Origin: Acaryochloris marina MBIC11017
Lineage (GTDB): Bacteria; Cyanobacteriota; Cyanobacteriia; Thermosynechococcales; Thermosynechococcaceae
Reading direction: 5' to 3'
Length of the DNA: 32,000 bases
Assembly: GCF_000018105.1 (NCBI RefSeq)
Contig: NC_009925.1
Coordinates: 5,400,001-5,432,000, forward strand
Made by a program: the position numbers and the translations under genes. The notes under the pieces are model-generated. The model had not been told where the DNA came from. It saw only the letters and a list, made by a program, of their open reading frames with translations, and did not search any database. Below are positions 6,765 to 19,635 of this stretch, piece by piece. Position 1 is the first letter of the stretch; the number at the start of each line of letters is the position of its first letter.

Positions 6765-7232
6765 ATGACTTTGTCAAAACTCTTGTACTGGATCTATACC
6801 TTCATTCATCCAGTCCTGATGTGGACACTGTTTGGTATCTGTATCTATGCCATGACCTTAGGGCTGAAGGTTCGCACCACCCGCACCACCCCTGACAAAG
6901 ATCTGCGCAAATCTCTGATTAAACAGCGCTTCAATATCAAGCATCATCAAATTGGGGCAATCCTGTTATCAATTATGGTCCTCGGCTCCATTGGCGGTAT
7001 GGGGGTCACCTATATCAACAACGGCAAACTGTTTGTAGGAGCGCACCTATTGGCAGGGCTAGGGATGACAGGACTTGTAGCCATCTTGGCAAGTCTCACG
7101 CCTCTGATGCAGCGAGGCAGTCAAACCGCCCGTGATGTCCATTTATGGCTAAGTGTATTGATTTTGGGCCTCTTTGGTTGGGAAGCCATTACCGGTATGC
7201 AGATTGTGCAACGGATTATCGAACAGGGCTAG
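6765..7232 (+). CDS. DUF4079-like integral membrane protein
   Basis: Four predicted TM helices and conserved His residues (HHQIG, GAHLLAG) resemble the cyanobacterial/plant DUF4079 family. Confidence 0.55.
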   Translation: MTLSKLLYWIYTFIHPVLMWTLFGICIYAMTLGLKVRTTRTTPDKDLRKSLIKQRFNIKHHQIGAILLSIMVLGSIGGMGVTYINNGKLFVGAHLLAGLGMTGLVAILASLTPLMQRGSQTARDVHLWLSVLILGLFGWEAITGMQIVQRIIEQG

Positions 7233-9911: not shown

Positions 9912-9993
9912 GGGTCGGTGCCCGAGTGGTTAATGGGGGCGGACTGTAAATCCGCTGGCTACGCCTACGCTGGTTCAAATCCAGCCCGGCCCA
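9912..9993 (+). tRNA. tRNA-Tyr (anticodon GTA), class II with long variable arm; CCA not encoded
   Basis: The acceptor stem is GGGTCGG/CCGGCCC. The anticodon arm is GCGGA-CTGTAAA-TCCGC. The variable arm is GGC-TAC-GCC and the T-arm GCTGG-TTCAAAT-CCAGC, with discriminator A. Confidence 0.95.
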
Positions 9994-10006
9994 TTGTCTT
10001 CGATTT

Positions 10007-10078
10007 GCCCATGTGGCTCAGTGGTAGAGCACACCCTTGGTAAGGGTGAGGTCACCGGTTCAATCCCGGTCATGGGCT
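10007..10078 (+). tRNA. tRNA-Thr (anticodon GGT); CCA not encoded
   Basis: The acceptor stem is GCCCATG/CATGGGC and the D-arm GCTC-AGTGGTA-GAGC. The anticodon arm is CACCC-TTGGTAA-GGGTG and the T-arm ACCGG-TTCAATC-CCGGT. It lies 13 nt after tRNA-Tyr. Confidence 0.95.
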
Positions 10079-10462: not shown

Positions 10463-11200
10463 ATGAAGCTTAATCAGCTTATTGCTGTCATGCAGTCCGT
10501 GAAAAAAAGAGCTGCAGACGAAAAGACAAAGATATACAAACAGATTCAAAAACCTGAGCTATTTCAAGGTTTGTCGCGGACCTACTCACCGAAGGATGAA
10601 GAAGGCCACGTCTATCCCCCCGAGTCTCAAAAGGTCACATATAAGGCGGGAGATGCGCTAGAAGCCTTTTCAAGGGCCTGCCAAGATTTATTTGACAGTG
10701 CTTTGACCCAAGATGAAGCCAATACCTCAGCAAGGGCCAACATCACCTTGGATGACGGTACAGTAATTGCGTCAGATGTCCCAGTCACATACTTGATGTT
10801 CTTAGACAAGCAGTTGACTGATATCAGGACATTTATCAGCCATATCCCGATCTTGCCCATTGATGAAGACTGGGAATATGACTCTAACCGAGGGTTTTAT
10901 GTCACTCGCCCTCGCGAAACCACTAAGACCAAGAAGGTACAAGAGTTTGTGATCGCTGCCGAGGCAACCGAACATCACCCAGCCCAGGTCAAAGAGGTCA
11001 CCAACGATGTAGTTGAAGGAACTTGGTCTTTGGTTAAGTTCTCTGGTGCTTTGCCACAGTCAGAACTAGATGAAATGCGACTTCGACTGGATGCACTTCA
11101 AAAAGCTGTTATCAAAGCTAGAGAGGAAGCCAATAGCATCGAAATAACTCGAAGAACTATATCGAATAACATTTTTGACTATTTATTTGGGCAGCGTTAG
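10463..11200 (+). CDS. uncharacterised 245-aa protein with no domain recognised by eye
   Basis: A strong SD (GAGAGGTGA) ends 4 nt before the ATG. It is the only long ORF on this strand in the AT-rich islet. The composition looks soluble, with a helical N-terminus, an EATEHHPAQV motif and a C-terminal coiled-coil-like segment (LRLDALQKAVIKAREEAN). Confidence 0.75.
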   Translation: MKLNQLIAVMQSVKKRAADEKTKIYKQIQKPELFQGLSRTYSPKDEEGHVYPPESQKVTYKAGDALEAFSRACQDLFDSALTQDEANTSARANITLDDGTVIASDVPVTYLMFLDKQLTDIRTFISHIPILPIDEDWEYDSNRGFYVTRPRETTKTKKVQEFVIAAEATEHHPAQVKEVTNDVVEGTWSLVKFSGALPQSELDEMRLRLDALQKAVIKAREEANSIEITRRTISNNIFDYLFGQR

Positions 11201-11228
11201 ATTGAACAAGAGCATAGATTTAGATTCA

Positions 11229-11316
11229 GTATCAAAAAAAGTGATTGGATGGTTCAAATCCTCCCTCTCGCATCCTTAAGCGAGAGTATGCTAATGGGTA
11301 AAGCAGCTTTTGATAC
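11229..11316 (+). ncRNA. circularly permuted tRNA-like RNA A (YrlA/Y-RNA-like architecture)
   Basis: Reading 5' to 3', the closing strand is GTATC-AAA-AAAAG (11229-11241), followed by a 5-nt linker TGATT. The T-arm is GGA(T)GG-TTCAAAT-CCTCC (11247-11264). The 7-bp acceptor-like helix pairs CTCTCGC (11265-11271) with GCGAGAG (11280-11286) and is capped by the loop ATCCTTAA. TA then occupies the U8-A9 positions. The D-arm is TGCT-AATGGGTAA-AGCA (11289-11305). The closing strand CTTTT-GATAC (11307-11316) pairs back to the 5' end, leaving a 3-A bulge. Confidence 0.6.
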
Positions 11317-11387
11317 ATTAAGGCTAAAAAATTAAACTCAGTTTATTGCTCTAGTCTTAATCTAAAATCCACTCTTGTGAATCAACC

Positions 11388-11496
11388 AAAGCTCAACAAC
11401 ACATGGGATATACGAGTTCAACTCTCGTCCCGCTCCCCAAATCTTGAGCGGGTAGTTTAATGGCAAAACACCCTTGTATTAAGCTGATTGAGCTTT
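11388..11496 (+). ncRNA. circularly permuted tRNA-like RNA B (YrlA/Y-RNA-like architecture)
   Basis: The outer helix pairs AAAGCTCAA (11388-11396) with TTGAGCTTT (11488-11496). The inner helix pairs AACACATGGG (11398-11407) with CCCTTGTATT (11471-11480) at 8 of 10 positions. The T-arm ACGAG-TTCAACT-CTCGT (11412-11428) is perfect. The 7-bp acceptor-like helix pairs CCCGCTC (11429-11435) with GAGCGGG (11446-11452), with loop CCCAAATCTT. TA follows, then the D-arm GTTT-AATGGCA-AAAC (11455-11469). Confidence 0.65.
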
Positions 11497-11540
11497 AATC
11501 AGACATAAACTAGTCACAAGTTAATGGCTCTAATGCATTG

Positions 11541-11576
11541 AACCCCGGCAGGCGGTATTTGCCGGGGTTTGTCTTT
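11541..11576 (+). terminator. strong intrinsic terminator closing the ORF245 plus tRNA-like RNA unit
   Basis: A GC-rich 9-bp stem pairs AACCCCGGC (11541-11549) with GCCGGGGTT (11561-11569) around an 11-nt loop. A T-rich run TTTGTCTTT spans 11568-11576, its first two Ts closing the stem. On the minus strand the tail is poor, so it is mainly plus-strand. Confidence 0.8.
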
Positions 11577-12059
11577 AGCCATACTCACATTCAGCGGTGG
11601 CATGATGACATGCCATCCCAATCTGGGTTAAGAGCATCTTCGAAACGCGTCCATGAATGCATAATCAAGGGTTAACGATAGTTTCGAACTTAGGTACAAG
11701 AAACTCCAAAGTATGCCCCCAATTTCAGTGGCAGCAGCCTAATCAGAACCCGGAAATTCTTAGGAATTGATTACATCGCAAGATACTTATTTTTTACTAA
11801 AATTTCTCTTTAAAATATCGACAACCAAACTTTTCAGTTTACACAGCTAAACATAAATAGCGCCACTCTGTACTGCTATTGTCAGTCAAAATTAGTTGAT
11901 ATAGATATTTTCACGAAGTGATAAATTAGCAAAAAAAGCTAGCCACACTTAGAACTAAGCAAACGAGTATTTATTTAGCTACACTCAAAGACAATTGCCA
12001 TAAAATAGATAATTTTATCTAACTCTGGAAATCCAAGCTAGAGTATTTCTATCTGCTGA

Positions 12060-12536
12060 TTACAACATAATCGTCGTCGCTTCATTCTCATCTAATAGAG
12101 ATGAGCAACCATATTGAGTAATCTGCGAAAAATCAGCCAAGGAATCCTCTTTAGTTATGATCTGACTAGATGAATAAAAAACCGCCTTGATCACCCCTCC
12201 AAACAAAATTCGATCGCCATTCACTAGAGTATGTCTTTGAACACGGCTGCCATTGACAAAGACACCATTAAAGCTCGATTTGCCATCAACCACACCATCA
12301 ATCAGTTCATATTGATAAGTTCCTTGGCTTAAATCAGATATCTTCTCCACAGTGGCATGGATACGGGAAATCATATCATTGGCTACAACAATATCACTGG
12401 ATGAATCTCGACCAATGGTGTACTTCCAGTTCATTAATGTGACTATTTTTTTAGGCTTTGTGTTAATAACAAGATAATGATGCTGCTTGAAGTGATGTGT
12501 TTGTTGATACATACTATTTCTGTATATGCATATCAA
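12060..12536 (-). CDS. stand-alone FHA-domain protein
   Basis: The FHA signature is YTIGRDSSSDIVVANDMISRIHATV ... SSFNGVFVNGSRV ... LVNGDRILFGG. The start is ambiguous: the Met at 12536, or the Met at 12512 (MYQQTHH). Confidence 0.8.
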   Translation of the reverse strand: MICIYRNSMYQQTHHFKQHHYLVINTKPKKIVTLMNWKYTIGRDSSSDIVVANDMISRIHATVEKISDLSQGTYQYELIDGVVDGKSSFNGVFVNGSRVQRHTLVNGDRILFGGVIKAVFYSSSQIITKEDSLADFSQITQYGCSSLLDENEATTIML

Positions 12537-16242: not shown

Positions 16243-16272
16243 ATTATAATAGTCGAGTAAAGAGCAGCTAAA
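16243..16272 (-). promoter_or_regulatory. possible promoter of the invertase gene
   Basis: On the minus strand, TTTAGC (16267-16272) is followed by 18 nt and then a perfect TATAAT (16243-16248). The site overlaps the stop codon of the upstream kinase gene. Confidence 0.35.
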
Positions 16273-17494
16273 GACAGTTTTTCAGCGCTTGCTGCAGTTC
16301 TTTGGCACTTTGGAACCGATGATCCGGATGGGGATGGGTTACTTTTTCAATAATGGCTTTAATCTGAGTGGGAATGCTGAGGATATTGGCCAATTCAATC
16401 CGATAGCCATGGCCCAGATTTTTGTAGAACTGCAATGGACTTTGCCCAGTAATCAAAAACAAAAGCGTCGCACCAATGCCATAGAGATCCGATTGAATGG
16501 TAGGACGGCCTAAGCCCTGTTCTGGAGCACTGTAACCCTCAACGGCAATCCGGGTTCCAGGGACGAGGCTTGCTTCTTTAACCGCACCAAAATCAATAAT
16601 GAAAACTTGGCTATCTCGATTCCGAACCAAAATATTACCGGGTTTCAAATCTCGATGAATAATCGGTGGGTCATGATGATGAATATAGTCCAAAATGTCA
16701 CAGGCCTGAATCATCCATTGCAGCACTTGATGTGGTGGCAATGGGCCACGTTGGTTCACCCACCGATCTAAATCTTGGCCATGAATCAGCTCCATCACCA
16801 GGTATTGCTTTTCATTCTCGGTAAAAAAATCGTACAAGCGGGGAATACCAGCATGCTGCAAGGATCTCAACATCCGCGCTTCCCGTTTGAATAATTCCTG
16901 TGCTTTAGGAATTTTTTCCATATCGGCATTCATTTCCTTGAGCACCTGAAGCTGTGGTTTTCTACTCTTATCATCCAGGTGCCGCACCAAGAATGTAGTT
17001 CCCATGCCCCCCATACCAATGACCTTCAACACTTCGTAAGGACCAATTGTCTGGAGAACATTCAGAGATTGACCACAATGTACGCAAAAAAGGTTGCCAG
17101 GTAAATTCCCAAAATGGGAGCAGGAAGAACTCTGAGAGCGAGTGGTTGCGGATTGACGTTTGGCTTCAATCTCGTGGGGAAGTTGCTGCTGAAATCTCAA
17201 AATCGGGCCTGTCAATCCTAGCTGAATAATCGTGTCATTTTTAATTTCTGTCTGGTTCGTCAGCTTCCCGTTTACGAACGTTCCATTACTGCCCAGACTC
17301 TTGATTTGCCAGGTAAAGGAGGACTCTATGTGTTTGATCAGGTGCAGTTCAAGGTGATAACGAGACACCAGTATGTCTCTGAGAACAATGTGATTATCGG
17401 AAGAACGGCCAATATTAATTTGCTTAGACGTGGTGAAGAGCCATTGTCTGATAGGAGCCTTATTAGTGGGATCAAGAAGGGTTAATGTAACCAC
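16268..17494 (-). CDS. FHA domain / zinc-ribbon / Ser-Thr protein kinase fusion
   Basis: The N-terminal FHA domain reads INIGRSSDNHIVLRDILVSRYHLEL ... GSNGTFVNGKL. A Cys pair motif CSHFGN..CVHCGQ follows. The Hanks kinase motifs are GMGGMGTTF, VLKE, HRDLKPGNIL, DFG and SAPE. Confidence 0.9.
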   Translation of the reverse strand: MVTLTLLDPTNKAPIRQWLFTTSKQINIGRSSDNHIVLRDILVSRYHLELHLIKHIESSFTWQIKSLGSNGTFVNGKLTNQTEIKNDTIIQLGLTGPILRFQQQLPHEIEAKRQSATTRSQSSSCSHFGNLPGNLFCVHCGQSLNVLQTIGPYEVLKVIGMGGMGTTFLVRHLDDKSRKPQLQVLKEMNADMEKIPKAQELFKREARMLRSLQHAGIPRLYDFFTENEKQYLVMELIHGQDLDRWVNQRGPLPPHQVLQWMIQACDILDYIHHHDPPIIHRDLKPGNILVRNRDSQVFIIDFGAVKEASLVPGTRIAVEGYSAPEQGLGRPTIQSDLYGIGATLLFLITGQSPLQFYKNLGHGYRIELANILSIPTQIKAIIEKVTHPHPDHRFQSAKELQQALKNCL

Positions 17495-17535: not shown

Positions 17536-19635
17536 TTAATAGGTCTGGGAAGATCGCTGAGGTTGGACTCTCATCAGGATGGCAATGACCGTTATATTGT
17601 CGTGACCATTATGTTCGTTAGCCAGCATTACTAGCTCATTGACCCCTTGTTGCAAGGTAACTTGAGAGTTAAGCATGGGCAATAAGTATTGGTCACAGTG
17701 GACTTCCAGTAGGTGATTATCGGTTAATCCATCGGAACAAATCAACAATAAAGTATCTTCGGATGCTGTTAAGAGCTGGATATCTGGCTCTAATGCCTCA
17801 TTCTCTCTAGGTCCTAAGGCTTGAGTGAGTTGATAGGCATCTGGCCGGGCATAGGCCACTGCAGGATCGGTGCCTCGTTGAATCTCTCGTTGCCCCACCT
17901 CATGGTCCACGGTGATTTGCTCTAATCCGGATTGATGGGTCAAGCGATATAAACGACTATCACCGACATGAGCAATTTGAATATGCGTATCTTGCACCAG
18001 CGCCATCACTAAGGTGGTGCCCATCCGATTATTCCCCGCCTTCTCCTCATTCAGCTGAAAAAGAGCATGGTTCGCTGCATAAATGGCGTCCTTCACAATC
18101 GCAGTATCAGGGAATTCAGTCTGCCAATGGGCTTGAAAATATTGCGTTAGGGTCTCCGTGGCCAAAGAACTCGCAATCTCTCCCCCCGCATGTCCACCCA
18201 TACCATCACAGAGGATATAGAGGCCTTGACCAGACACATGATTCTGATGGGGATTACAAATTTGTTGCAGTCGCTGATCAATCGCAAAATAATCTTCATT
18301 ATGATGTCGATCTCGACCATCATCGGTTTGGCCTGCCGCCGCCAAATGAACCAACTGATTGGGTAGGATCAGGGTTGGCGCAGCACCAGTTTCAGCCCCT
18401 GAAGACTGGTGAGCCTGGGTGTGAGTTATAGAGGGCTGGAGGCTAGGCAGGCGCTGACTTAATTCATTTAAGTATTCCAGCAGCTCTGCTTGGGTAACAT
18501 TTTCAGCCGATTGCAAATTATCCAACAAGGGCTGAAATTGCTCTAAAAGAGAAGCTCCTAATCCTTGCAATAAATCTAACCAGACATATCTTAAATCGTC
18601 CCAGGTCGGGGATTGGATGGAGGTACTCCCCTTTTCGGACTTGCCGGGCCAGAACTGACCGGGTTCAAATAGGAGTTGCTGAAGGCACAGGATTTGTCCC
18701 TGATCGACTTTCAAATTTTCTTTGTTGAGAACACTAGGCAAGCATTGCCAGGGTGCACAAACGACTGCAAAGTTCAGGGTTTGCTCTAACCAGTACAGAA
18801 TTTGAGTGGGACTCGCCTGCCCCTCGGCAATGACTTCCTTTAATGAGGGTAAGTCAGCGCGGTTCTCTAATAAGATGACCGCCTGTTGTTCTGACTGCCA
18901 AGCATCATGAACATGAGGAAGTAGGAGAGGAAACTGTTGCCTCAAGGCTAAGTAAGGCTCTAGAACGATTGGGAAAGGTAAAGGCTGCGCTTCCAAAAAA
19001 CCCTTAATCGTTTCTGGTTGCCCCATGTCAGCGGGATTGATGGTTCCCTCTAGTTGGTTCAGCATGATCGCAAGAGGAGAAACCTGCAGTGGCTGCGTAT
19101 CTAGAATCGTGAGTTCGAGATTGCCATTCTCTGCCAGTTTCGGGTCTTGAGGCACCATTGATGCCAATAGCTGATATCGAGGGTTCTGATCCAAAAAACT
19201 CTGGATAGCAGGAGACAGAGATGGAATCTTTGAGTCACTCGACTGCTGTAACACTGCTGTCGAGGAACCAGAGGAACTGAGTTCCACAGTATCTATTTCT
19301 CCATCAGACTGATCACCCACTAAGCGTTCAATTGAGTCTAATAGCTCTTCTGTTGAAGGCTCCTCATCCAAAAGGGCAACAGATTCTCCCATAGGAATCG
19401 TCTCGACTGCAGACAGCTCTGCCATGGTGGGGGATGGGTCGAGGTTAGGCAGTGGGGTAATTAGCGTCCACCAGATTGTGCCGGTTAAATGATCACATTG
19501 GGGACAGTGAGTCACCTCAAAATCTACTAAATGTCCACAATTTGCACAGTGTTTTTGAGTCAGGGAAGTGCCACATTGTTGACAGAAACGATGATCGTCA
19601 ATGTTGTGATAATTACACTGGGGACATTTAATCAT
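17536..19635 (-). CDS. double zinc-ribbon protein with C-terminal PP2C-family Ser/Thr phosphatase domain
   Basis: The N-terminus carries CPQC..CQQCG and CANCG..CPQC. The C-terminal PP2C motifs are HHNEDYF, LCDGMGGHAGGE, HVGDSRLY, CSDGLTD and GHDNITV. The gene ends 41 nt upstream of the kinase gene, so the two probably form an operon. Confidence 0.9.
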   Translation of the reverse strand: MIKCPQCNYHNIDDHRFCQQCGTSLTQKHCANCGHLVDFEVTHCPQCDHLTGTIWWTLITPLPNLDPSPTMAELSAVETIPMGESVALLDEEPSTEELLDSIERLVGDQSDGEIDTVELSSSGSSTAVLQQSSDSKIPSLSPAIQSFLDQNPRYQLLASMVPQDPKLAENGNLELTILDTQPLQVSPLAIMLNQLEGTINPADMGQPETIKGFLEAQPLPFPIVLEPYLALRQQFPLLLPHVHDAWQSEQQAVILLENRADLPSLKEVIAEGQASPTQILYWLEQTLNFAVVCAPWQCLPSVLNKENLKVDQGQILCLQQLLFEPGQFWPGKSEKGSTSIQSPTWDDLRYVWLDLLQGLGASLLEQFQPLLDNLQSAENVTQAELLEYLNELSQRLPSLQPSITHTQAHQSSGAETGAAPTLILPNQLVHLAAAGQTDDGRDRHHNEDYFAIDQRLQQICNPHQNHVSGQGLYILCDGMGGHAGGEIASSLATETLTQYFQAHWQTEFPDTAIVKDAIYAANHALFQLNEEKAGNNRMGTTLVMALVQDTHIQIAHVGDSRLYRLTHQSGLEQITVDHEVGQREIQRGTDPAVAYARPDAYQLTQALGPRENEALEPDIQLLTASEDTLLLICSDGLTDNHLLEVHCDQYLLPMLNSQVTLQQGVNELVMLANEHNGHDNITVIAILMRVQPQRSSQTY

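What the first reader, a model, noticed from the sequence alone, without database searches (positions are those of the whole stretch)
10463..11576. Candidate protein-RNA module: unknown ORF plus two Y-RNA-like tRNA mimics plus one terminator, with no Ro60/RtcB
RNA A starts 28 nt after the ORF245 stop. RNA B starts 71 nt after A. The only strong intrinsic terminator of the islet starts 44 nt after B. I find no convincing -35/-10 pair between these parts, so a single transcript that is later processed is the simplest reading. YrlA-type tRNA-mimicking Y RNAs are normally encoded beside rsr (Ro60 orthologue), and in enterobacteria within the rsr-yrlBA-rtcBA RNA-repair operon. Here neither TROVE/vWA nor RtcB-like sequences occur anywhere in the 32 kb. 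Instead the RNAs follow an unassigned 245-aa protein in an AT-rich islet beside tRNA genes. There are three possibilities, all inference. One is a new Y-RNA partner protein. Another is a tRNA decoy or sensor module acting in RNA-damage or phage conflict. The third is a substrate mimic that titrates tRNA-processing or modification enzymes.
Basis: partly seen in the sequence, partly recalled or inferred. Interest (0 to 1): 0.9.

Follow-up and report, generated by a model that had tools for sequence, protein, structure and literature searches.

The report
DUF7873 protein with two-headed tRNA-like RNA
An uncharacterised protein gene (DUF7873) is almost always found next to a roughly 370-base structured RNA carrying two tRNA look-alike domains, in bacteria of at least seven lineages and in many phages, and this conserved protein-RNA pair does not appear in the papers or Rfam families I could search.

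Summary
ORF 10463-11200 is a full-length DUF7873 protein of Acaryochloris marina. It is followed by two circularly permuted tRNA-like domains (T-arm, 7-bp acceptor-like hairpin, D-arm) and a terminal hairpin. No Ro60, vWA or RtcB gene lies in the 32 kb.

The module is strongly conserved. tRNA-like units lie beside the DUF7873 gene in 174 of 177 loci examined, from Cyanobacteria, Actinomycetota, Chloroflexota, Deinococcota, Planctomycetota and Myxococcota/Deltaproteobacteria, and from phages with only about 29-33% protein identity. Base-pair covariation is very strong.

The two "RNAs" are most likely domains of one roughly 370-nt RNA with a conserved scaffold. That RNA has its own conserved -10 promoter at the ORF stop codon, and in marine Myxococcales it lies upstream of the gene with its own promoter and terminator.

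Domain B resembles YrlA only weakly (31 bits; gathering score 69). rsr is a neighbour in 2 of about 175 loci. At least 73 of 75 DUF7873 phage records lack Ro60. In phages the pair often sits in tRNA gene arrays.

The protein has no detectable structural or sequence relatives. Best reading: a Ro60-independent, Y-RNA-like ribonucleoprotein acting in tRNA-related RNA metabolism. The function is inferred, not shown.

The parts
10463..11200 (+). DUF7873 protein gene (245 aa; Acaryochloris marina ABW30309.1 / WP_012165556.1)
   Evidence: Pfam PF25283, E 1.6e-96, full length. Exact sequence found in A. marina MBIC 11017. The family has 2630 representatives at the 50% identity level, nearly all about 245 aa and single-domain. 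AlphaFold2 model has pLDDT 91.5. No structural or sequence relative in PDB or BFVD.
11175..11203 (+). Promoter-like site for the RNA: -35 TTGACT (11175-11180), 17-nt spacer, -10 TAGATT (11198-11203; its TAG is the ORF stop codon)
   Evidence: Consensus scan. On its own it is not above chance (6 sites found, 5.4 expected). However, a TAnnnT box 6-9 nt upstream of the first conserved helix recurs in cyanobacterial, Chloroflexota, Deinococcales, actinobacterial and phage loci. L082 has TTGCGC-17-TACAAT at the same place. Promoter function is inferred.
11209..11576 (+). Whole structured RNA (about 368 nt), from the predicted start to the end of the U-rich tract
   Evidence: Alignment of 17 homologues from 6 phyla: 50 predicted pairs, 44 of them with compensatory changes. 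Fold z-score is -4.15. The extent is inferred from the conserved promoter and the terminal hairpin.
11209..11352 (+). Domain A with its scaffold: outer helix AGAGCA (11209-11214) paired with TGCTCT (11347-11352), enclosing tRNA-like domain A
   Evidence: The outer helix (GGAGCG/CGCTCC in most lineages) is supported by covariation (columns 52-57 with 293-298). The scaffold is retained even in 12 Streptomyces loci where the tRNA-like core of A is replaced by a plain hairpin.
11229..11316 (+). tRNA-like domain A. Anticodon-stem substitute 11229-11237 with 11308-11316. T-arm 11247-11264 (one bulged T). Acceptor-like stem 11265-11271 with 11280-11286. Closing loop 11272-11279. D-arm 11289-11305.
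   Evidence: Read directly from the sequence. The minimum-free-energy fold recovers all four helices. Model R1 scores 29.0 bits at 11228-11327.
11379..11387 (+). Conserved single-stranded AUCRA motif in the A-B linker (GAATCAACC)
   Evidence: ATC.A columns are invariant or nearly invariant in the 17-sequence alignment. Function unknown. It resembles the YrlA GNCGAA motif only loosely.
11392..11493 (+). tRNA-like domain B. Anticodon-stem substitute 11401-11407 with 11471-11477. T-arm 11412-11428. Acceptor-like stem 11429-11435 with 11446-11452. Closing loop 11436-11445, which begins C-CCA. D-arm 11455-11469.
   Evidence: R1 scores 85.3 bits. Rfam YrlA RF02553 scores 31.3 bits at 11390-11497, below the gathering score of 69. 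Covariation on 63 homologues. The flank stem pairs 5.8 of 7 positions with its own partner against 4.6 when partners are swapped.
11484..11502 (+). Small hairpin of the 3' domain (CTGATT / AATCAG)
   Evidence: Sequence. The minimum-free-energy fold draws this stretch differently, as part of a longer pairing, so the hairpin is my reading of the sequence. The region aligns with the conserved 3' domain of other cyanobacteria.
11543..11576 (+). Terminal hairpin CCCCGGCA / TGCCGGGG with a 9-nt loop, followed by TTTGTCTTT; the probable intrinsic terminator
   Evidence: Sequence. In 132 of 174 loci a 7-bp hairpin with a GGNUA loop lies at this position, against 8 of 174 control windows. The window's loop (GGCGGTATT) is a one-base variant of that motif.
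9912..10078 (+). Context only: tRNA-Tyr (9912-9993) and tRNA-Thr (10007-10078), 385 nt upstream on the same strand
   Evidence: ARAGORN and Rfam.

Best explanation
The locus is a two-gene protein-RNA module.

Gene 1 encodes DUF7873, a 245-aa protein of a fold with no recognisable relatives. Its most conserved motif (E-x-T-x-x-H-P-x-Q) sits at the tip of a long beta-hairpin in the model.

Gene 2 is a structured RNA of about 370 nt. It is transcribed from its own promoter, which overlaps the ORF stop codon, and it ends at a conserved hairpin that probably also terminates transcription.

The RNA has a conserved scaffold carrying two YrlA-type tRNA mimics. Each has a T-arm, a D-arm and a full 7-bp acceptor-like stem whose ends are joined by a loop.

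Inferred steps:
1. The tRNA machinery treats these domains as tRNA. RNase P cuts 5' of the acceptor stem, the 3' side is trimmed, and CCA is added where it is not encoded. This was shown for the 7-bp-stem YrlA of Mycobacterium smegmatis. It would remove the closing loops and leave a multi-piece RNA with two tRNA-like acceptor ends.
2. DUF7873 binds this RNA to form a ribonucleoprotein.
3. The particle works in tRNA-related RNA surveillance, repair or protection. It would be a functional parallel of the Ro60-Y RNA particle that does not need Ro60. Phages would carry it with their tRNA gene arrays to keep a usable tRNA pool during infection.

Shown: the gene-RNA linkage, the RNA structure, and the lack of any need for a neighbouring or same-phage-genome Ro60 gene. 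Inferred: processing, binding and function.
For: Linkage:
- tRNA-like units lie next to DUF7873 in the window and in 82 of 83 genome or assembly loci.
- They are present in 7 of 7 GenBank phage loci and 78 of 80 IMG/VR loci.
- They are present in L126, L296 and L292-L295.
- The linkage holds at 29-33% protein identity, in Vibrio, Klebsiella and Rhizobium phages.
- It survives a swap of gene order in L082/L083.

Structure:
- Domain B: 98.9% of cells paired, 15 of 16 pairs compensatory, covariation score 0.887 against 0.25 for shuffles and at most 0.19 for slid partners.
- Whole RNA: 44 of 50 pairs compensatory.

Own transcription unit: a conserved -10 box. L082 has TTGCGC-17-TACAAT before the RNA and a hairpin with a U-tract after it, about 175 nt before the gene.

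tRNA-type ends:
- The discriminator position is A in 94 of 116 A domains and U in 85 of 116 B domains.
- N-CCA follows the 3' acceptor strand in 44 of 116 A domains and 20 of 116 B domains, where chance would give about 1.6%.
- Closing loops range from 4 to 193 nt, as expected if they are excised.
- A genuine tRNA gene is embedded after B in L079 and L126.
- Chen et al. [quoted passage not shown]

Independence from Ro60:
- No Ro60 in the window, and a Ro-like hit in only 1 of 170 other DUF7873 loci scanned.
- Gordonia phages split into 11 Ro60-positive and 12 DUF7873-positive records with no overlap.
- In Nonomuraea, rsr has its own YrlA (Rfam 51 bits) while DUF7873 has its own A and B (R1 78 bits).

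Links to tRNA and RNA repair:
- 25 of 80 IMG/VR loci have 3 or more tRNA genes within 5 kb.
- Phendrix gp144 lies inside a tRNA array that shares gene order with the array in phage Boopy, where a Ro-like protein and a YrlA-like RNA sit instead.
- One cyanobacterial locus has an RNA ligase gene and an HD/kinase gene directly upstream.
- rsr lies 2-3 kb away in two independent loci.
Against: - Nothing shows that the protein binds the RNA.
- The family is mildly acidic (median pI 5.7, net charge about -4), which is not typical of RNA-binding proteins.
- There is no fold or sequence relative to lean on.
- tRNA-like domain A is dispensable in 12 Streptomyces loci, so a strictly two-headed mechanism cannot be universal.
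- CCA is absent after most acceptor strands.
- The RNA-repair neighbourhood is a single case among about 175 loci.
- In cellular genomes the neighbours are otherwise unrelated.
- Three loci (L005, L248, L252) have the gene without a detectable RNA.
- No expression data were available.
Confidence: 0.55

Rival explanations
1. Two separate small Y-like RNAs are cut out of the 3' end of the DUF7873 mRNA, so there is a single transcript and no promoter in between.
For: - Same strand, short gaps, and one terminal hairpin.
- The Streptomyces loci printed show no obvious -10 box. They have a strong hairpin between the stop codon and the RNA, so co-transcription followed by processing is possible there.
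Against: - A TAnnnT box is conserved 6-9 nt before the first helix in many phyla, including the window.
- In L082 the RNA is upstream of the gene with its own promoter and terminator.
- The linker, outer helix, 3' domain and terminal loop are conserved as one unit.
Confidence: 0.15
2. These are ordinary Ro60-dependent Y RNAs. Rsr is encoded elsewhere in the genome and is the true partner. DUF7873 is an accessory or an unrelated neighbour.
For: - B is the only Rfam-detectable similarity, and it is to YrlA.
- rsr lies 2.5 kb from DUF7873 in Nonomuraea, and a Ro-like gene lies 2 kb away in IMG/VR L266.
- I could not check whether the rest of the A. marina genome has rsr.
Against: - At least 73 of 75 DUF7873 phage records come from groups with no Ro60 hit, and Gordonia phages show zero overlap.
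- In Nonomuraea, rsr has its own YrlA beside it.
- The GNCGAAN0-1G Ro-binding motif is absent from the window RNA and is not enriched across loci (52 of 171 against 40 of 171 shuffles).
- The gene-RNA linkage is to DUF7873, not to rsr.
Confidence: 0.1
3. This is a conflict module of the toxin-antitoxin or decoy kind. DUF7873 would act on tRNA as a toxin or enzyme, and the tRNA-mimic RNA would neutralise it or soak up host tRNA-targeting enzymes, in the manner of a type III system or an anti-defence decoy.
For: - Tight pairing of a protein gene with a structured RNA.
- Presence in phages and in tRNA arrays.
- Invariant polar residues (E54, K116, H172, R220, E221, N224) could form an active site.
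Against: - No hit in PADLOC.
- A and B are not sequence repeats.
- The RNA gene lies downstream of the protein gene in nearly all loci; as I recall, in known type III systems the RNA repeats lie upstream of the toxin gene.
- In the loci examined there is one copy, set among unrelated and often housekeeping genes in large-genome bacteria.
- The domains lack an anticodon loop, so they cannot decoy anticodon nucleases.
Confidence: 0.1
4. It is an artefact or something trivial: degraded tRNA genes, integration-site remnants, or chance resemblance.
For: - Junctions of tandem tRNA genes give the same permuted pattern and score 28-55 bits with R1.
- The window has two real tRNA genes nearby.
Against: - Closed 7-bp acceptor hairpins with heavy compensatory change.
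- ARAGORN finds no tRNA at the window's A and B, at 11229-11497, nor at the units of the 20 loci scanned; see the pseudo-tRNA note for the exceptions in Streptomyces.
- Conservation across phyla with the same gene.
- No integrase-type family among the ORFs scanned in the window.
Confidence: 0.01

Closest known systems
Ro60 (Rsr) with YrlA-type Y RNA, as in the bacterial rsr-yrlBA(-rtcBA) loci and the Ro-like genes of mycobacteriophages
   Same: - An RNA gene sits next to its presumed protein partner.
- The RNA contains a permuted tRNA mimic (T-arm, acceptor-like hairpin, D-arm) with a stem replacing the anticodon arm.
- The 7-bp acceptor stem matches that of M. smegmatis YrlA, which RNase P cuts (PMC4201824).
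- Both occur in bacteria and in phages, and in phages both sit in or at tRNA arrays.
   Different: - The protein is unrelated: about 245 aa with no TROVE or vWA domain and no detectable fold relative.
- The RNA is 3-4 times longer, with two tRNA-like heads, an outer scaffold, a 3' domain and a conserved terminal loop.
- It scores well below the Rfam YrlA gathering score (31 bits against 69).
- The Ro-binding motif is not found.
- rsr is almost never nearby.
tmRNA with SmpB, including the two-piece tmRNA made from circularly permuted ssrA genes (from my own knowledge)
   Same: - A tRNA-like domain inside a larger RNA, working with a small dedicated protein.
- Permuted gene order, in which a loop joining the acceptor strands is removed by processing.
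- Both are found in phage tRNA arrays (tmRNA in L084 and L087).
   Different: - ARAGORN and Rfam find no tmRNA here.
- I did not look for a tag reading frame; nothing in the sequence suggested one.
- There are two tRNA-like domains.
- The protein is not SmpB-like.
Circularly permuted tRNA genes of some algae and archaea (from my own knowledge)
   Same: The 3' half (T-arm and 3' acceptor strand) is encoded before the 5' half (5' acceptor strand and D-arm), joined by a removable linker.
   Different: Those yield complete, functional tRNAs with an anticodon arm. Here the anticodon arm is replaced by helices that tie the domain into a larger RNA, and ARAGORN calls no tRNA in the window's RNA.
Type III toxin-antitoxin systems such as ToxIN (from my own knowledge)
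   Same: A protein gene tightly linked to a structured RNA gene, with separate control through a terminator or promoter. Both occur in bacteria and in mobile elements or phages.
   Different: - There are no tandem sequence repeats.
- The RNA is downstream rather than upstream in nearly all loci.
- No PADLOC hit.
- Chromosomal, housekeeping-like context in many phyla.
Large ornate RNAs found near tRNA genes in phages (GOLLD, ROOL; association recalled from my own knowledge)
   Same: A large structured RNA associated with phage tRNA regions.
   Different: No Rfam hit to these families at permissive thresholds. As far as I recall, those RNAs have no dedicated adjacent protein gene.

Membership tests
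Pfam DUF7873 (PF25283) | Full-length match above the curated cut-off | tested here: met
   323.2 bits against a cut-off of 27; residues 2-242 of 245.
YrlA / bacterial Y RNA (Rfam RF02553) | Reaches the Rfam gathering score (69 bits) | tested here: not met
   B scores 31.3 bits and A gives no hit. Caveat: YrlA-like RNAs linked to Ro60 in phage Boopy and in Nonomuraea also score only 52 and 51 bits.
YrlA / bacterial Y RNA | Permuted tRNA-like module: T-arm, acceptor-like stem-loop and D-arm, with the 5' and 3' flanks forming a stem | tested here: met
   Sequence. Covariation.
YrlA / bacterial Y RNA | Ro60-binding motif GNCGAAN0-1G in the 5' strand (Chen et al. 2014) | tested here: not met
   None in window 11201-11580. 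Across loci, 52 of 171 against 40 of 171 shuffles.
YrlA / bacterial Y RNA | Encoded next to rsr (a TROVE-domain protein) | tested here: not met
   None in the 32-kb window. Ro-like genes lie near DUF7873 only in L266 and L296.
YrlA / bacterial Y RNA | Bound by Ro60/Rsr in vivo | not testable with these tools
   Needs immunoprecipitation. I also could not check whether A. marina encodes rsr elsewhere in its genome.
tRNA | Cloverleaf with an anticodon arm, detected by ARAGORN or Rfam RF00005 | tested here: not met
   The only tRNAs in the window are tRNA-Tyr and tRNA-Thr at 9912-10078.
tmRNA (one-piece or permuted two-piece) | tRNA-like domain plus a tag reading frame, detected by ARAGORN or Rfam | tested here: not met
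   No tmRNA in the window. The same tools do find tmRNA in L084 and L087.
Intrinsic (Rho-independent) terminator | G+C-rich hairpin followed directly by a U-tract | tested here: inconclusive
   An 8-bp G+C-rich stem followed by TTTGTCTTT is present. The scan rejects it because the loop is 9 nt. The hairpin loop motif is conserved across the family, so it is more than a terminator.
Known anti-phage defence systems (PADLOC) | Match to a defence-system protein model | tested here: not met
   No family at E <= 0.1.

The most novel reading that the evidence does not exclude
DUF7873 and its RNA form a previously unrecognised class of ribonucleoprotein in bacteria and phages that is independent of Ro60. 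[quoted passage not shown] The particle then guards, repairs or regulates the tRNA pool, or is even aminoacylated or meets the ribosome. That would explain why phages carry it inside their tRNA gene arrays as an alternative to Ro60 with YrlA.
Probability: 0.3. Interest if true: 0.92.

Novelty: new variant of a known kind. Interest (0 to 1): 0.82.

Why it matters
Until now, as far as I know, bacterial tRNA-mimicking Y RNAs have been known only as partners of Ro60, and their tRNA-like domain still has no assigned function.

Here the same RNA design, doubled and built into a larger conserved RNA, is tied to a completely different and uncharacterised protein. That protein family has about 2,600 clusters at 50% identity and is spread over at least six bacterial phyla and many phages.

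This gives a second, independent system in which to ask what tRNA mimicry is for. It assigns a testable partner and context to a large DUF family. It also points to an unrecognised component of phage tRNA gene arrays.

There is a practical side too. The RNA is currently unannotated, or covered by spurious small 'hypothetical protein' or 'tRNA' calls, in phage and Streptomyces genomes.

Tried and rejected
1. RNA-first scan of metagenome contigs with GTTCRANTC-N{22,52}-TAGTTYARNGGNARAAC. It was too unspecific.
   - Most of the 80 fetched loci looked like junctions of tandem tRNA genes; this was confirmed by ARAGORN for 13 of the 17 best-scoring ones.
   - One was DUF7873-linked (L126, the only R1 score above 57 bits) and one was Ro60-linked (L139).
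2. Structure and homology searches for DUF7873 found nothing usable.
   - Foldseek against PDB: best hit Cas7 at E 0.016 and TM-score 0.13. Foldseek against BFVD: no match at E <= 0.001.
   - PDB profile search, NCBIfam, PHROGs and PADLOC: nothing.
   - Pfam scan of 58 family members: nothing beyond DUF7873.
3. Ro-binding motif GNCGAAN0-1G: not enriched.
4. RNA-repair neighbourhood (RNA ligase plus HD/kinase): seen only in L292 and in no other locus.
5. A second covariance model, for domain A with its scaffold, was not built. MAFFT misaligned the 5' scaffold between cyanobacteria and the other phyla. Domain A was counted from weaker R1 hits and a pattern search instead.
6. tRNA adjacency in cellular genomes: the apparent 21 of 80 loci is mostly ARAGORN pseudo-tRNA calls on the RNA itself, so I do not claim it.
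7. Literature:
   - No paper contains 'DUF7873'.
   - None of the papers returned by the YrlA and tRNA-like searches deals with this module, judging by titles, abstracts and the passages I read.
   - The supplement of Chen et al. 2014 and the 2020 Annual Review on bacterial Ro60 were not available.
8. Considered and rejected: mobile-element attachment remnant, cis-regulatory 3' UTR, and small-protein coding in the gap. The reasons are the compensatory changes, the RNA's own promoter, and the upstream arrangement in L082.
Full report
**What is in the window**

ORF 10463-11200 (+) encodes a 245-aa protein. It is a full-length member of Pfam DUF7873 (E 1.6e-96). Its exact sequence is that of Acaryochloris marina MBIC 11017 ABW30309.1.

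Two elements follow the ORF, each with the parts of a tRNA in circularly permuted order.

| Part | Element A | Element B |
|---|---|---|
| Extent | 11229-11316 | about 11392-11493 |
| T-arm | 11247-11264 | 11412-11428 |
| Acceptor-like stem (7 bp) | 11265-11271 with 11280-11286 | 11429-11435 with 11446-11452 |
| Closing loop | 8 nt | 10 nt, beginning C-CCA |
| D-arm | 11289-11305 | 11455-11469 |
| Stem replacing the anticodon stem | GTATCAAAA with TTTTGATAC | ACATGGG with CCCTTGT |

A hairpin at 11543-11567 followed by TTTGTCTTT closes the region.

ARAGORN and Rfam call only tRNA-Tyr and tRNA-Thr, at 9912-10078. Rfam YrlA matches B at 31.3 bits, against a gathering score of 69. The 380-nt region folds with z = -4.15.

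No Ro60 is present by tblastn. The 26 ORFs scanned against Pfam, which include every ORF of 200 aa or more, contain no TROVE, vWA_Ro60, RtcB, RtcA or RtcR domain. The neighbours are housekeeping genes such as dnaB, rplI, msrA, an invertase and trpE.

**The module is conserved**

DUF7873 is a large, tight family. A profile search finds 2630 representatives at the 50% identity level, nearly all about 245 aa.

I built a covariance model (R1) of domain B from 17 sequences. Its hits beside the DUF7873 gene were as follows.

| Set of loci | Loci with a tRNA-like unit beside the gene |
|---|---|
| Genome and assembly loci | 82 of 83 (exception: Spirulina L005) |
| GenBank phage loci | 7 of 7 |
| IMG/VR loci | 78 of 80 |
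| L126, L296, L292-L295 | all 6 |
| Total, including the window | 174 of 177 |

- In the genome and assembly loci the hit lies 200-350 nt downstream of the gene and scores 38-90 bits (58-90 in all but L079).
- These loci come from Cyanobacteria, Streptomyces and other Actinomycetota, Planctomycetota, Ktedonobacterales, Anaerolineales, Deinococcales and Myxococcota/Deltaproteobacteria.
- The linkage persists at 29-33% protein identity, in Vibrio, Klebsiella and Rhizobium phages.
- Outside the module, the model's only other hits at these thresholds in these loci are weak (35 bits or less): junctions of tandem tRNA genes, and short fragments of about 13 bits.

**RNA structure**

- On 63 B homologues, 98.9% of cells form standard pairs and 15 of 16 pairs show compensatory change. 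The covariation score is 0.887, against 0.25 for shuffles and at most 0.19 when partners are slid.
- The stem that replaces the anticodon stem pairs 5.8 of 7 positions with its own partner, against 4.6 when partners are swapped. None of 200 swaps reached the observed value.
- On the whole stop-to-terminator region (17 sequences, 6 phyla), RNAalifold finds 50 pairs, 44 of them with compensatory changes. These include an outer helix (GGAGCG with CGCTCC) that encloses domain A.
- The A-B linker contains an invariant AUCRA motif.
- The non-cyanobacterial RNAs share a 3' block (TTAAACG...GCGCAAnTGGG).
- The terminal hairpin carries a GGNUA loop in 132 of 174 loci, against 8 of 174 control windows.
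- In 12 Streptomyces loci the tRNA-like core of A is replaced by a plain hairpin, while the scaffold and B remain.

These features argue for one RNA of about 330-450 nt with two tRNA-like heads, rather than two separate small RNAs. This is an inference.

**Transcription**

A TAnnnT box lies 6-9 nt upstream of the first conserved helix (GAGYRCAAG) in 8 of the 9 cyanobacterial loci examined, in Anaerolineales, Deinococcales, Ktedonobacterales and Virgisporangium, and in phage Mimi.

In the window this box is TAGATT (11198-11203). Its TAG is the ORF's stop codon, and TTGACT lies 17 nt upstream.

In the marine Myxococcales locus L082 the RNA lies upstream of the gene. It is preceded by TTGCGC-17-TACAAT and followed by a hairpin with a U-tract, about 175 nt before the ATG.

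So the RNA is its own transcription unit that stays next to the gene in either order.

**tRNA-type ends**

- The position after the 3' acceptor strand is A in 94 of 116 A domains and U in 85 of 116 B domains.
- N-CCA follows in 44 of 116 A domains and 20 of 116 B domains, where chance would give about 1.6%.
- Closing loops range from 4 to 193 nt.
- Real tRNA genes are embedded after B in L079 and L126.
- Chen et al. 2014 showed that M. smegmatis YrlA, which has a 7-bp acceptor stem, is cut by RNase P and receives CCA in vivo. They attributed this to the 7-bp stem.

I therefore infer that these loops are excised. That would explain why they tolerate insertions.

**Relation to Ro60**

A Ro60 query was validated by hits annotated 'Ro-like RNA binding protein'. 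It finds 357 phage records, mostly Mycobacterium and Streptomyces phages.

DUF7873 is in 75 phage records: Vibrio 29, Gordonia 12, Rhizobium 12, Klebsiella 7, Serratia 6 and others. In Gordonia phages the 11 Ro60-positive and 12 DUF7873-positive records do not overlap.

In phage Boopy, a Ro-like gene heads a tRNA array that also holds a YrlA-like RNA. In Phendrix, a tRNA array with the same gene order holds DUF7873 gp144 and its RNA.

Ro-like genes lie within 5-6 kb of DUF7873 in only two loci.
- One is IMG/VR L266.
- The other is Nonomuraea gerenzanensis. There, rsr has its own YrlA (Rfam 51 bits) and DUF7873 has its own A and B (R1 78 bits), 2.5 kb apart on the same strand.

Two adjacencies are more than I would expect by chance, and they hint at a shared pathway. 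They also show that the two RNA classes are distinct.

**Context**

- 25 of 80 IMG/VR loci have 3 or more tRNA genes within 5 kb, and some have up to 38.
- Five of the seven GenBank phage loci abut tRNA genes.
- Neighbours in cellular genomes are not conserved.
- One cyanobacterial locus has an RNA ligase gene and an HD/kinase gene directly upstream. This is unique among the loci examined.

**The protein**

The AlphaFold2 model is confident (pLDDT 91.5). It has long N- and C-terminal helices and a long beta-hairpin, with the invariant T169 and H172 and the nearly invariant P173 and Q175 at its tip.

Foldseek against PDB and BFVD finds nothing significant, and neither do the sequence-profile searches. 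The family is mildly acidic. What the protein does is unknown.

**Conclusion**

The finding is a real and widely conserved protein-RNA gene pair that I could not find described in the searchable literature or in Rfam. Its RNA follows the YrlA design, but it is larger, two-headed and tied to a different protein.

The most likely mechanism is a Ro60-independent ribonucleoprotein whose tRNA-like heads are handled by the tRNA-processing machinery, and which serves tRNA-related RNA surveillance, repair or protection. Binding, processing and function all remain to be shown.

Noticed in passing
L137 (metagenome contig Ga0207648_10117434), minus strand, about 880-1700: At least four tandem repeats of about 200 nt. 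Each contains a permuted tRNA-like unit flanked by conserved sequence (GCGACTCGYRCGGGCGG ... GAGCTTACAAACC). ARAGORN finds no tRNA, and there is no DUF7873 or Ro60 on the 2.3-kb contig. This may be another undescribed family of YrlA-like RNAs.
   Followed up: partly
window 9949-10055; L001 3149-3251: The B model also matches the junction of two adjacent tRNA genes (the 3' half of tRNA-Tyr plus the 5' half of tRNA-Thr, 30.5 bits). A tandem tRNA pair read across its junction is a permuted tRNA, which is a plausible evolutionary origin for these domains.
   Followed up: no
L296 (Nonomuraea gerenzanensis NZ_LT559118.1, 9603000-9618000), minus strand: The gene order is tRNA, YrlA, a second tRNA-like RNA, rsr (TROVE plus vWA_Ro60), a glyoxalase-like gene, DUF5997, an unassigned ORF, DUF7873, domain A, domain B. 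The Ro60 system and the DUF7873 system lie 2.5 kb apart, each with its own RNAs.
   Followed up: yes
L292 3912-5814: RNA_ligase (PF09414) and HD plus AAA_33 kinase-type genes lie directly upstream of DUF7873 on the same strand in one cyanobacterial contig. This is an RNA-repair-like cassette. It is unique among about 175 loci.
   Followed up: yes
L021, L024, L026, L029, L032, L035, L053, L055, L056, L058, L061, L069, L070, L078, L080, about 30-120 nt after the gene: ARAGORN-93-nt 'tRNAs' with inconsistent anticodons (Ala-agc, Val-aac, Phe-gaa, Leu-gag, undetermined). They overlap the 5' scaffold and the T-arm of domain A in Streptomyces. They are probably artefacts that could end up in genome annotations.
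   Followed up: partly
L085 5720-6188 (Gordonia phage Ziko gp125 and gp126); L088 3778-4020 (Vibrio phage D505); L087 5184-5272 (Boopy 'tRNA-Leu'): Small 'hypothetical protein' CDS are annotated over the RNA in Ziko and D505. In Boopy an annotated tRNA overlaps a YrlA-like hit. These are probably mis-annotations.
   Followed up: partly
L011, L030, L036 and other Streptomyces loci, the first 60-100 nt after the stop codon: A strong G+C-rich hairpin (for example CCCCCGCG-TGCGAG-CGCGGGGG) lies between the DUF7873 stop codon and the start of the RNA scaffold. No obvious -10 box is visible there. It may be a terminator, an attenuator or a processing site.
   Followed up: no
L005 (Spirulina sp. SIO3F2); L248 and L252 (IMG/VR): These loci have a DUF7873 gene but no detectable tRNA-like RNA in the flanks held. 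They are the only three exceptions among 177 loci.
   Followed up: partly
L001 about 6970-7100; L003 about 6810-7000; L010 about 2900-2960; L014 about 2290-2390: Insertions of 60-190 nt sit inside the acceptor-closing loops of domain A or B. Some look like repeats or small mobile sequences.
   Followed up: no
window 12060-12536 (-), 16268-17494 (-), 17536-19635 (-): An FHA-domain protein, an FHA plus Ser/Thr kinase protein and a PP2C phosphatase form a signalling cluster downstream. The stretch 11.6-13.4 kb is AT-rich (GC 0.36-0.39). There is no evident link to the module.
   Followed up: no
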